Positions 26,201 to 29,200 of a DNA stretch of 64,000 bases are shown here, one piece after another; position 1 is the first letter of the stretch; every line of letters starts with the position of its first letter. The stretch is from Escherichia coli (GTDB lineage Bacteria; Pseudomonadota; Gammaproteobacteria; Enterobacterales; Enterobacteriaceae), in assembly GCF_022846255.1 (NCBI RefSeq), contig NZ_AP025682.1; one strand, given 5' to 3'. The position numbers were made by a program.

Positions 26201-29200
26201 CAAAACTGACGGTCTGGATCCCGATCAGGCAGTGGTTGATTTCTACGCGCTTGGTTTAGGTGAAATCTACCCGATCGCCGCGTCTCACGGTCGTGGCGTA
26301 TTAAGTCTGCTGGAGCACGTGCTGCTGCCGTGGATGGAAGATCTCGCACCGCAAGAAGAAGTCGACGAAGACGCCGAATACTGGGCGCAATTTGAAGCGG
26401 AAGAGAACGGCGAAGAAGAAGAGGCAGACGACTTCGACCCGCAAAGTCTGCCGATCAAACTGGCGATTGTGGGTCGTCCGAACGTAGGTAAGTCTACACT
26501 CACTAACCGTATTCTTGGTGAAGAGCGCGTTGTTGTTTACGACATGCCTGGCACGACGCGTGACAGTATCTACATTCCAATGGAACGCGACGGACGTGAG
26601 TATGTGCTCATTGACACCGCTGGCGTACGTAAACGCGGCAAAATCACCGATGCGGTAGAGAAATTCTCGGTAATCAAAACGTTGCAGGCCATTGAAGATG
26701 CCAACGTGGTGATGTTGGTGATTGATGCGCGTGAAGGTATTTCCGATCAGGATCTCTCCTTGCTGGGCTTTATTCTCAATAGTGGGCGCTCACTTGTGAT
26801 TGTAGTGAACAAGTGGGACGGCCTGAGCCAGGAAGTGAAAGAGCAGGTGAAAGAGACGCTGGACTTCCGTCTGGGCTTTATCGATTTTGCTCGTGTGCAC
26901 TTTATCTCTGCCTTGCACGGCAGTGGTGTTGGTAACTTGTTTGAATCAGTACGTGAAGCGTATGACAGCTCCACCCGTCGTGTGGGGACCTCTATGCTGA
27001 CGCGCATCATGACGATGGCTGTTGAAGATCACCAACCACCGCTGGTACGCGGTCGTCGTGTGAAGCTGAAATACGCCCACGCCGGGGGTTATAACCCGCC
27101 GATTGTGGTGATTCACGGCAATCAGGTGAAAGACCTGCCTGATTCCTACAAGCGTTACCTGATGAACTACTTCCGCAAATCGCTGGACGTAATGGGATCG
27201 CCGATTCGTATTCAGTTCAAAGAAGGGGAAAACCCGTATGCGAACAAGCGTAACACCCTGACGCCAACCCAGATGCGTAAACGTAAGCGTCTGATGAAGC
27301 ATATCAAGAAAAGTAAGTAGTCACTTATTTTATTTACTTAGCGCAATGTCGTTCACTTAAGCAGAGCGGCATTGCTGCTAACTGGATAACGGTTTTTTGA
27401 TATCTTCACCTCCCTCGGCCTTGATGATCGGGGGCTATGAGCAGCACTTCCAAATTTCCACGCAGATGCCCCAACCTCTTCGGACTTGTTCCTGTCGAAT
27501 CGGTATTCCCCAGTACTATCAGCGCTGTTGCGATGAACTCAAAGGTAAAATCAGAGCTTATTTCCTGGGGGACAATCTCTTATGTTTCTCTGCTGCTTGA
27601 TTGCATATTCTTACGATCAGGTAGCAAGATGTGACCGCGAGGCTCAGCATTTCAGGCAGTATTGTACCTACTTAGCAGAAAAATGTTCGGCAAAAGGTTG
27701 CGCTGAAGGAGATGGCATTAATAAGATCACAGAAATCGAGCAAATCATTAAGTAGTGCATAAGAAAACGTCCCCCTGTTATGGAAGTCGTCATAGCGCTG
27801 CAAATTAAGGAGCGGCATTGGTTATTACCGCATTTTTTATTGCGCACCATATATCAACAATAAGAATGAATTAACTAATATTAATTTGTTTTATTTATAT
27901 TTATACGGAAAATAAATAAACGTTATTCATATATAAATGATATGTCAGAAATTTAATTTAATATTTACTAGCACTTTATGCAGATTTTAAATAAAATCCA
28001 ATTTAATTTAGTTTAAATCAGGGATGGTTTTTATATGCTGCGTTGGTCTCCAGTGCTTTTTTCTATTATGTGGGCAAGTGCTTCATGGGCATCAGAAGGA
28101 AAAGTAGAACCAATAAATATCAGTTCTACTAATAGTGCTAATACACTTCCTGATTTAGGTAGTAACGAAAAATCAAACAACAAAGATGAAAAAAGTGCTT
28201 TAGTCGATAAAGCTCAGGGTTATTTTATAAATTCCGCAACGCAAGGTTTTGAAAATCTCACGCCCGAGGACCTGAAGGCTCAGGCTGAAAGCTATGCGAA
28301 AGGGCAGGTGACGTCCACCGCTCAGTCTTATCTTGAGAATGTCTTGTCGCCTTATGGTTCTGTCAGAACCAGCTTATCAGTTGGTGAGGGGGGCGACTTA
28401 GACGGCAGCTCCTTTGACTACTTTGTCCCCTGGTATGATAACCAGGAAACTCTCGTTTTCAGCCAGTTCTCGGCACAACGTAAAGACGACCGAACCATTG
28501 GTAACATTGGGGTTGGCGTACGCCAGAACATTGGTAACTGGTTGCTTGGCGGCAACCTGTTTTATGACTATGACTTTACTCGCGGTCATCGCCGTTTGGG
28601 ACTGGGTAGCGAAGCCTGGACCGATTACCTGAAATTTTCCGGCAACTATTACCATCCGCTTTCTGACTGGAAAGATTCAAAAGACTTCGATTTTTACGAA
28701 GAACGACCAGCGCGTGGCTGGGATGTCAGAGCTGAAGGTTGGCTACCTGCATGGCCACAACTCGGCGCAAAACTTGTCTATGAACAATATTATGGCGATG
28801 AAGTCGCACTTTTTGGTACCGACAATCTGGAAAAAGATCCTCAGGCGTTAACTGTTGGACTGATGTATAACCCTGTTCCGCTATTTACCGTAGGTTCAGA
28901 TTATACATCTGGTACGGGTGATAATGATGATTTAAGTGTCAATGTATCCCTGAACTATCAGATAGGTACGCCACTGAAGGAGCAATTAGATCCTGATAAT
29001 GTCAAAGCCCGGCATTCTTTAATGGGAAGCCGCCACGACTTCGTTGAACGTAATAACTTCATTGTGCTGGAGTATCGCGAAAAAGATCCGCTTGATGTGA
29101 CGCTGTGGCTGAAAGCCGATACCACGAATGAACATCCGGAATGTATTGTGAAAGACACACCAGAGCTGGCCGTGGGTCTGGAAAAATGTAAGTGGACGAT

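What the first reader, a model, noticed from the sequence alone, without database searches (positions are those of the whole stretch)
27321..27829. About 500 bp of non-AT-rich, apparently non-coding DNA immediately downstream of der
Between the der stop and the AT-rich sinH leader there is a stretch of ordinary composition with no convincing ORF (the 65-67-aa track ORFs have no ribosome-binding site and no recognisable protein features). It could hold an sRNA, a decayed gene remnant or the island's left junction.
Basis: seen in the sequence. Interest (0 to 1): 0.35.

Follow-up and report, generated by a model that had tools for sequence, protein, structure and literature searches.

The report
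Decayed IS4-family insertion sequence after der
The roughly 500 bp between der and the AT-rich sinH leader is the eroded shell of an old IS4-family jumping gene that has lost its transposase core, which makes it an ordinary genomic fossil rather than a hidden gene or RNA.

Summary
Positions 27321-27829 have 44.8% GC, against 19.5% in the sinH leader, and contain no ORF longer than chance allows.

The stretch is a 477-bp relic (27344-27820) of an IS4-family insertion sequence, with its transposase gene on the minus strand.
- **What survives:** the right terminal inverted repeat (17 of 18 bases), the last 8 bases of the left terminus, about 35 N-terminal codons and about 90 C-terminal codons. 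The codons lie in broken reading frames.
- **What is lost:** about 950 bp, including the whole DDE catalytic domain and part of the left end.
- **Closest relatives (about 74% nucleotide identity):** an intact 1430-bp IS on an E. coli pO103 plasmid, and the K-12 ISZ'/insZ pseudogene between tdk and adhE.
- **Position:** homology to strains without this island stops 8 bp after the der stop codon. The relic starts 15 bp further on, just inside the left edge of a rare der-yfgJ sinH island.
- **Distribution:** the same relic with the same deletion sits at the same site in 8 of 5426 complete E. coli genomes. NCBI's PGAP pipeline already labels part of it an IS4-family transposase pseudogene in two of the three copies I inspected.

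I found no support for an sRNA or a small protein gene. The one open point is a strong hairpin followed by a T-run at the IS right end, 10 nt after the der stop. It could terminate der transcription, but this is untested.

Interest is low.

The parts
27321..27328 (+). Last 8 bp (TCACTTAT) of core-genome sequence after the der stop codon, still shared with strains that lack this island.
   Evidence: Alignment with the der-yfgJ intergenic region of strain 95-3322. Identity holds through 27328 and then breaks.
27329..27343 (.). 15-bp AT-rich island-side flank (TTTATTTACTTAGCG) between the core/island junction and the IS right terminus. It may be half of a decayed target-site duplication.
   Evidence: It has no homology to 95-3322 or to the IS. 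It shows only a weak resemblance to the flank after the left terminus (TTACTTAGCG against GTTATTACCGC; A25 has TTACTGCCGCG).
27344..27820 (-). The whole relic of an IS4-family insertion sequence, 477 bp, with its transposase on the minus strand.
   Evidence: blastn blocks 27343-27564 and 27652-27815 are 74% identical to the intact 1430-bp IS on pO103_CEC12044_2 and to K-12 insZ. PGAP annotates the E2348/69 and Z1323HEC0423 orthologues as an 'IS4 family transposase' pseudogene.
27344..27361 (+). Right terminal inverted repeat, CAATGTCGTTCACTTAAG. The relic's transposase stop codon lies inside it.
   Evidence: It matches the right inverted repeat of the intact IS and of insZ (CAATGCCGTTCACTTAAG) at 17 of 18 positions.
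27356..27433 (-). Transposase fragment corresponding to residues 420-445 of the intact 445-aa protein.
   Evidence: tblastn, 69% identity, frame -3.
27436..27564 (-). Transposase fragment corresponding to residues 374-416, in a different reading frame.
   Evidence: tblastn, 70% identity over 43 aa, frame -1, joint E=6e-19.
27576..27620 (-). Transposase fragment corresponding to residues 356-370, in a third reading frame.
   Evidence: tblastn, 60% identity over 15 aa, frame -2.
27621..27652 (.). Junction of the large internal deletion. Roughly residues 38-355 are missing, which covers all of the DDE_Tnp_1 domain and most of Nterm_IS4.
   Evidence: This is the gap between the two blastn blocks: 87 nt here against 1007 nt in the intact IS. 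The Pfam domains of the intact protein are at residues 22-112 and 129-356. The junction is shared by all haplotypes, apart from a 12-nt indel.
27653..27755 (-). N-terminal transposase fragments (residues 15-37 and 3-12), with a frameshift and an in-frame stop. The vestigial ATG is at 27760-27758.
   Evidence: tblastn, 57% and 90% identity, frames -3 and -2, E=8e-6. Nucleotide alignment.
27803..27820 (+). Degraded left terminus. The terminal CGGCATTG is intact, but about 23 nt of the subterminal left end are deleted.
   Evidence: The reverse complement, CAATGCCGCTCCTTAATT, matches the left inverted repeat CAATGCCGATCAGTTAAG at 12 of 18 positions. The alignment shows the loss of TCGGTCAACCGATCCTTAACTGA. 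The A25 haplotype has lost a further 49 nt here.
27330..27389 (+). Strong hairpin made of the IS right terminus, its subterminal complement and a few flank bases. It is followed by CGG and then T6 at 27393-27398.
   Evidence: RNA fold gives -27.3 kcal/mol with z=-5.0 and 0 of 200 shuffles as stable. The core stem is also present in the intact IS, insZ and an O157 remnant. The terminator scan did not call it.
27821..28034 (+). AT-rich (about 20% GC) sinH leader, listed as context. The IS appears to have inserted into this AT-rich DNA.
   Evidence: It is only 72-77% identical between all haplotype pairs.

Best explanation
The stretch is a dead, internally deleted copy of an IS4-family insertion sequence. 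It belongs to the IS4 subgroup and is related to K-12 ISZ'/insZ. The element once transposed into the AT-rich DNA upstream of sinH, about 15 bp inside the left edge of a rare horizontally acquired der-yfgJ island (sinH-sinI-adhesin). It later lost about 950 bp, including the whole DDE catalytic domain. It also lost about 23 bp of its left end and accumulated frameshifts and a stop codon. Its near-average GC content is simply that of the former transposase gene and contrasts with the AT-rich island DNA around it. It cannot encode a transposase and is present once per genome at one fixed site, so it most likely does nothing today except act as spacer DNA and as a substrate for homologous recombination between island alleles. 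The identity, anatomy, orthology and mosaicism are shown. The order of events and the lack of present-day function are inferred.
For: - **DNA homology:** blastn places the stretch on 'IS4 family transposase' features in 2458 E. coli genomes at about 74% identity. In K-12 the match is the insZ pseudogene between tdk and adhE, in two pieces spanning 965 bp for 476 nt of query.
- **Protein homology:** tblastn with the intact 445-aa transposase of pO103_CEC12044_2 finds residues 3-37 and 356-445 on the minus strand in all three minus-strand frames (E=6e-19 and 8e-6). That protein carries Pfam Nterm_IS4 and DDE_Tnp_1 and matches NCBIfam transpos_IS4_1 at 1.8e-75.
- **Termini:** the right inverted repeat matches at 17 of 18 positions and the terminal 8 bases of the left end are intact. 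The intact relative is 1430 bp with 18-bp inverted repeats (16 of 18 matching each other) and an 11-bp target duplication. insZ is itself a 989-bp deletion derivative with a 10-bp duplication.
- **Orthologues:** the same relic, site and deletion junction occur in 8 of 5426 complete E. coli genomes and in 2 metagenome contigs. In each of the three genomes inspected it lies just upstream of sinH. PGAP labels part of it an IS4-family transposase pseudogene in E2348/69 and Z1323HEC0423.
- **Junction:** homology with the island-free arrangement ends at 27328.
- **No sign of another function:** Rfam gives nothing. ORF length is within chance, and the two longest ORFs are broken in both other haplotypes.
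Against:
- No clear target-site duplication survives.
- The claim of no present-day function is an inference. The right-end hairpin plus T-run 10 nt after the der stop could matter for der transcript 3' ends.
- The 27344-27640 part is 97-98% identical between the window and the E2348/Z1323 haplotype, while sinH four-fold sites are 69% identical. I attribute this to recombination, because the third haplotype is 82-94% identical there, but weak constraint is not excluded.
Confidence: 0.9

Rival explanations
1. The relic's right end has been co-opted as the der terminator or insulator. In this reading, the hairpin at 27330-27389 followed by T6 at 27393-27398 stops or stabilises the bamB-der transcript and keeps read-through out of the sinH leader. 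It might also yield a stable RNA derived from the der 3' UTR.
For: The hairpin folds at -27.3 kcal/mol with z=-5.0. It begins 10 nt after the der stop codon, and a U6 run lies 3 nt after the stem. All three haplotypes keep a strong hairpin, at -27 to -30 kcal/mol in the two folded. Island-free strains also have a hairpin, without a U-run, just after der.
Against: The core stem is a generic feature of this IS group's right end and is present in the intact IS, insZ and an O157 remnant. The T-run is simply the former coding sequence for Ser-Lys-Asn. The base of the stem is AU-rich and is separated from the U-run, so the terminator scan did not call it. The stem extension into the flank is not shared by the E2348/A25 haplotype. 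No expression data are available.
Confidence: 0.1
2. The stretch encodes an independent small RNA or a small protein.
For: Composition is ordinary and the stretch is intergenic. ORFs of 57-67 aa exist. The 57-aa ORF is open in the A25 haplotype.
Against: The best Rfam hit scores 21 bits against a gathering threshold of 50, at E=0.11. No sigma-70-like promoter was found. The 67-aa and 65-aa ORFs are frameshifted or stopped in both other haplotypes, and the 57-aa ORF is broken in E2348/69. There is no Pfam match. ORF length is matched by 29% of shuffles. All of these ORFs lie antisense to, or out of frame with, recognisable transposase remnants.
Confidence: 0.03
3. The relic is the agent or scar of island acquisition. 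In this reading the der-yfgJ sinH island arrived or was rearranged through this IS, as a composite transposon or through IS-mediated recombination, so the relic defines the island's end.
For: The relic sits only 15 bp from the core/island breakpoint. It is present in every known copy of the island.
Against: No second IS copy or relic lies at the other end of the island, 33651-33776, which holds only a terminator-like hairpin. 15 bp of AT-rich DNA that is neither IS nor core separates the relic from the junction. This fits insertion into pre-existing AT-rich island DNA. In E2348/69 the der 3' end is used as an attachment site by a tyrosine-integrase element, which is a different mechanism.
Confidence: 0.1

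Closest known systems
ISZ' / insZ pseudogene of E. coli K-12 (between tdk and adhE)
   Same: It belongs to the same IS4-subgroup lineage, at about 74% nucleotide identity. The right inverted repeat is identical (CAATGCCGTTCACTTAAG) and the terminal left-end bases are the same. It is also an internally deleted, frameshifted relic that keeps both ends, at 989 bp with a 10-bp target duplication. It is listed as ISZ'/insZ in PMC3032704.
   Different: It lies at a different chromosomal site and arose from an independent insertion. It retains far more of the transposase gene. The window relic is 477 bp, has lost the whole DDE domain and part of the left end, and shows no clean target duplication.
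Intact IS4-family element on plasmid pO103_CEC12044_2 (transposase WP_001368890.1, 445 aa)
   Same: It serves as the template for the relic's anatomy: 1430 bp, 18-bp inverted repeats, an 11-bp target duplication, and the Nterm_IS4 and DDE_Tnp_1 domains. The surviving relic fragments are 57-90% identical at the amino-acid level.
   Different: It is only about 74% identical at the nucleotide level, so it is a different IS species. It is intact and plasmid-borne, and elements of this group occur at up to 9 places per genome.
IS4 (insG), the prototype of the family
   Same: From established knowledge of IS4, not tested here: about 1.4 kb, 18-bp imperfect inverted repeats, 11-13-bp target duplications and a single DDE transposase of about 440 aa. 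The intact relative used here matches that plan.
   Different: IS4 itself was not compared directly. The relic lacks every catalytic feature.
Orthologous 'IS4 family transposase' pseudogene just upstream of sinH in E. coli E2348/69 and Z1323HEC0423; the A25 copy is not annotated
   Same: Same locus, same orientation and same large deletion. These are the same ancestral insertion.
   Different: Overall nucleotide identity is 87-88%, in a mosaic pattern. The window is 97-98% identical to the E2348/Z1323 type in 27344-27640 but 77-79% identical beyond, and the reverse holds against the A25 type. There are also 12-nt and 49-nt indels. In E2348/69 a 7.4-kb integrase element separates der from the relic.
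CS54 island / ila (sinH-sinI-ratA, IatB) cluster between yfgJ and xseA
   Same: The gene family next door is the same. The window also carries that cluster at 34201-45615.
   Different: The relic belongs to a second, rare cluster on the other side of yfgJ (SinH 71% identical). I did not find that cluster described in the papers searched.

Membership tests
IS4-family insertion sequence (as a relic) | Sequence homology to an IS4-family transposase gene, with fragments in the same order as in the gene | tested here: met
   tblastn places residues 3-12, 15-37, 356-370, 374-416 and 420-445 in order on the minus strand (E=6e-19 and 8e-6). blastn against 2458 E. coli genomes lands on IS4-family transposase features. 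The reference protein matches transpos_IS4_1 at 1.8e-75.
IS4-family insertion sequence (functional element) | An intact DDE catalytic domain (DDE_Tnp_1) in one open reading frame | tested here: not met
   Residues of roughly 38-355, including DDE_Tnp_1 (129-356), are deleted. The remaining pieces are spread over all three minus-strand reading frames and include an in-frame stop. It is therefore a relic and not an active member.
IS4-family insertion sequence | Terminal inverted repeats of about 18 bp | tested here: inconclusive
   The right repeat matches at 17 of 18 positions. The left end keeps the terminal 8 bases but matches at only 12 of 18 after a 23-nt subterminal deletion.
IS4-family insertion sequence | A direct target-site duplication of 10-13 bp flanking the element | tested here: inconclusive
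   Clean duplications are seen for the intact IS (11 bp) and for insZ (10 bp). At the relic there is only a weak resemblance, TTACTTAGCG against GTTATTACCGC or TTACTGCCGCG.
MITE-like non-autonomous deletion derivative | A short element that keeps both termini and is present in multiple dispersed copies | tested here: not met
   Both termini are at least partly kept, but there is only one place per genome, always just upstream of sinH, in 8 of 5426 genomes.
Known RNA family (Rfam 15) | A covariance-model score at or above the family's gathering threshold | tested here: not met
   The best hit is ctRNA_p42d at 21.3 bits against a threshold of 50, E=0.11. The others have E>3.
Small protein gene | An ORF conserved and intact across alleles, with a recognisable domain or a length beyond chance | tested here: not met
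   The 67-aa and 65-aa ORFs are broken in both other haplotypes, and the 57-aa ORF is broken in E2348/69. There is no Pfam hit. 29% of shuffles give an ORF of 67 aa or more.
Intrinsic (Rho-independent) terminator | A GC-rich stem-loop immediately followed by a U-tract, with transcript 3' ends mapping there | tested here: inconclusive
   The hairpin is strong (-27.3 kcal/mol, z=-5) and a U6 run lies 3 nt downstream. The stem base is AU-rich and the consensus scan did not call it. Transcript 3' ends cannot be tested with these tools.

The most novel reading that the evidence does not exclude
The fossil IS end has been domesticated. Its terminal hairpin plus T-run, placed 10 nt after the der stop codon, would now serve as the terminator or insulator of the essential bamB-der transcript. 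It would replace the native der-yfgJ hairpin and shield the horizontally acquired sinH adhesin cluster from read-through. It might also give rise to a stable RNA derived from the der 3' UTR.
Probability: 0.1. Interest if true: 0.3.

Novelty: already known. Interest (0 to 1): 0.1.

Why it matters
It matters little beyond correct annotation.
- It removes a candidate sRNA or small-protein locus.
- It explains the odd block of ordinary GC content between der and the AT-rich sinH leader.
- It fixes the left junction of a rare der-yfgJ adhesin island at 27328/27329.
- The relic is a useful marker. All known copies of this island share the same deletion, so it is a single ancestral event. The mosaic pattern within the relic records recombination between deeply diverged island alleles.
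- The more noteworthy biology is next door: two paralogous sinH clusters flank yfgJ, and der's 3' end serves as an integration site in E2348/69.

Tried and rejected
- **Rfam:** a permissive scan of 27000-28300 found nothing meaningful.
- **Promoters and terminators:** the consensus scan found no promoter-like site and no plus-strand terminator inside the stretch.
- **Parent IS in other species:** an exact-pattern scan of 100,044 species-representative genomes with a relic-specific motif gave 0 hits.
- **More alleles:** a metagenome scan with a 24-mer conserved in all alleles gave 2 contigs, both identical in haplotype to known alleles (Z1323 type and A25 type), so no new diversity.
- **Parent transposase:** a protein search with the frame-repaired 92-aa C-terminus gave only one weak hit (69% identity over 39% of the query).
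- **Plasmids:** the plasmid collection holds nothing closer than about 74%.
- **Other species with SinH:** a scan with SinH1 gave 41 loci, none above 74% amino-acid identity and none with the relic upstream. The island type and its relic were therefore not found outside E. coli.
- **Constraint:** I considered purifying selection, because the relic is 87-88% identical overall while sinH four-fold sites are 69% identical. I rejected this. The average hides a mosaic of near-identical and 77-85% identical segments that switch partners between haplotypes.
- **Left-end hairpin:** a hairpin plus T-run at about 27812-27845 was no more stable than shuffled sequence (z=-0.24) and pairs in a different register in the other haplotypes.
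- **Literature:** searches found ISZ'/insZ and the xseA-yfgJ 'ila' cluster but nothing on this relic or on the der-yfgJ cluster.

Full report
**Observation.** The der gene ends with TAG at 27318-27320, and the next long ORF, a 731-aa SinH-type inverse autotransporter, starts at 28035. Positions 27321-27829 have 44.8% GC. The following 205 bp up to the sinH ATG have 19.5% GC, der has 52.9% and the whole window 51.4%. The longest ORF inside the stretch is 67 aa, and 29% of 1000 shuffles of the same bases give one at least that long.

**What it is.** A sensitive blastn against 5426 complete E. coli genomes matches the stretch in 2458 of them at about 74% identity, almost always under features annotated 'IS4 family transposase'.
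- In K-12 the match is the frameshifted pseudogene between tdk and adhE. This is the element listed as ISZ'/insZ (PMC3032704).
- An intact relative lies on plasmid pO103_CEC12044_2. It is 1430 bp long. Its 18-bp terminal inverted repeats are CAATGCCGTTCACTTAAG and CAATGCCGATCAGTTAAG, and it has an 11-bp target duplication, CGCGAAGCGGG.
- That element's 445-aa transposase carries Nterm_IS4 (residues 22-112) and DDE_Tnp_1 (residues 129-356), and matches NCBIfam transpos_IS4_1 at 1.8e-75.

tblastn of this protein against the window finds the following pieces, in order, on the minus strand (joint E=6e-19 and 8e-6):

| Transposase residues | Window coordinates |
|---|---|
| 3-12 | 27755-27726 |
| 15-37 | 27721-27653 |
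| 356-370 | 27620-27576 |
| 374-416 | 27564-27436 |
| 420-445 | 27433-27356 |

The pieces use all three minus-strand reading frames and include an in-frame stop. At the nucleotide level two blocks align with the intact element at 74% identity, 27343-27564 and 27652-27815. Between them lie 87 nt where the intact IS has 1007 nt.

The right terminus is at 27344, where CAATGTCGTTCACTTAAG matches the inverted repeat at 17 of 18 positions. The left terminus is at 27820, where the terminal CGGCATTG is intact but about 23 nt of subterminal sequence are missing.

The stretch is therefore a 477-bp shell of a roughly 1.43-kb IS4-family element. It keeps both tips and the two extremities of the transposase gene. 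It lacks the whole catalytic domain.

**Orthologues and age.** Only 8 of 5426 complete E. coli genomes hold the full stretch, at 87-88% identity. In the three inspected, the order is der, relic, sinH, sinI, adhesin gene, yfgJ. In E2348/69 an extra integrase element lies between der and the relic.
- PGAP annotates part of the E2348/69 and Z1323HEC0423 copies as an 'IS4 family transposase; frameshifted; incomplete' pseudogene. The A25 copy carries no annotation.
- Two metagenome contigs carry the same alleles.
- All copies share the same right terminus and the same large deletion. They differ only by a 12-nt indel at the junction, and the A25 type has lost a further 49 nt that removes the left terminus.
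- One insertion and one major deletion therefore predate the divergence of three haplotypes. Those haplotypes differ at sinH four-fold sites by about 31% between the window and the others.

The relic is mosaic. The window is 97-98% identical to the E2348/Z1323 type over 27344-27640 but 77-79% identical over 27641-27820. Against the A25 type the pattern is reversed. This pattern indicates recombination between alleles, not selective constraint.

**Junction.** The window is E. coli, since der is 99.9% identical to many strains. In strain 95-3322, der is followed after 62 bp by yfgJ. Alignment shows shared sequence only through 27328 (TCACTTAT). Fifteen AT-rich bases follow (27329-27343) and then the IS terminus.

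The IS appears to have inserted into AT-rich island DNA just inside it. No clean target duplication survives, and no second IS copy lies at the other end of the island. I therefore do not think the IS delivered the island.

**Alternatives.**
- **sRNA:** Rfam gives nothing near threshold, and no sigma-70-like promoter was found.
- **Small protein:** the 67-aa and 65-aa ORFs are frameshifted or stopped in both other haplotypes. The 57-aa ORF is broken in E2348/69 and open in A25. None has a Pfam match.
- **Terminator:** the one feature that could have a present-day role is a hairpin at 27330-27389 (-27.3 kcal/mol, z=-5.0). It is followed by CGG and T6 at 27393-27398, and it starts 10 nt after the der stop. 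It could act on der transcripts. However, its core is generic to this IS group's right end. The T-run is former coding sequence. The stem base is AU-rich, and the terminator scan did not call it. I give co-option as a terminator about 10%.

**Comparison with what is known.** The relic works like, and is, a decayed insertion sequence. It meets the homology criterion for the IS4 family. It fails the criterion of an intact DDE transposase and gives inconclusive results for the left inverted repeat and the target duplication. It is therefore filed as a relic and not as an active member. It is not a MITE, because there is a single copy per genome at one site. The closest parallel is K-12 ISZ', itself a 989-bp deletion derivative that keeps both ends. 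No full-length element closer than about 74% was found in E. coli genomes, plasmids, species representatives or the protein database.

**Verdict.** The kind is already known, and orthologous copies are already annotated. Interest is about 0.1.

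Noticed in passing
window 28035-33650, 33777-34001 and 34201-45615: The window carries two paralogous sinH-sinI-large-adhesin clusters, one on each side of yfgJ. A rare cluster lies between der and yfgJ, and the common CS54/'ila'/IatB-type cluster lies between yfgJ and xseA. SinH1 and SinH2 are 71% identical. The der-proximal cluster occurs in only 8 of 5426 complete E. coli genomes, and there at only about 88% nucleotide identity (69% at four-fold sites). No SinH1-type protein above 74% identity was found in 100,044 species-representative genomes. E2348/69 has only cluster 1 and strain 95-3322 only cluster 2. I saw no reference genome with both, but I did not check all eight carriers.
   Followed up: partly
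L051 (NC_011601.1:2863000-2876000), next to the orthologue of window 27300-27345: In E2348/69 a roughly 7.4-kb element is integrated into the 3' end of der, between der and the relic. It encodes a tyrosine integrase, a pentapeptide-repeat protein, a nucleotidyltransferase-domain protein and an HTH regulator. The element supplies a new der 3' end (…AAAAGCAAATAA), and the old one (CATATTAAGAAAAGTAAGTAA) remains as a repeat beside the relic. The last roughly 20 nt of der therefore act as an attachment site.
   Followed up: partly
window 33777-34001: The yfgJ homologue (zinc-ribbon protein, 74 aa) is only 65% identical to YfgJ of strain 95-3322, although the der genes of the two strains are 99.9% identical. 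Most differences are in the N-terminal half. This suggests that the gene is part of, or recombines with, the flanking islands.
   Followed up: partly
window 27821-28034 and the orthologous leaders in L001 and L003: The AT-rich sinH1 leader is hypervariable. E2348/69 and A25 have sinH coding sequences that are 99.1% identical, but their leaders are only 73-77% identical and their relic segments 79-92% identical. A recombination breakpoint therefore lies at about the sinH start codon, and the regulatory region has been swapped.
   Followed up: partly
L004 5005-5993 (K-12 ER3413, tdk-adhE intergenic region): The K-12 ISZ'/insZ pseudogene is itself an internally deleted IS4-subgroup element. It is 989 bp against 1430 bp for the intact relative, with both 18-bp termini intact and a clean 10-bp target duplication, CCCAGAAGGG.
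   Followed up: yes
window 33690-33715: A clean terminator-like hairpin (GCCCCCATGTTTTTACATGGGGGC followed by AATTTTT) lies downstream of the 784-aa adhesin gene and just upstream of yfgJ, at the right end of the der-proximal island.
   Followed up: no
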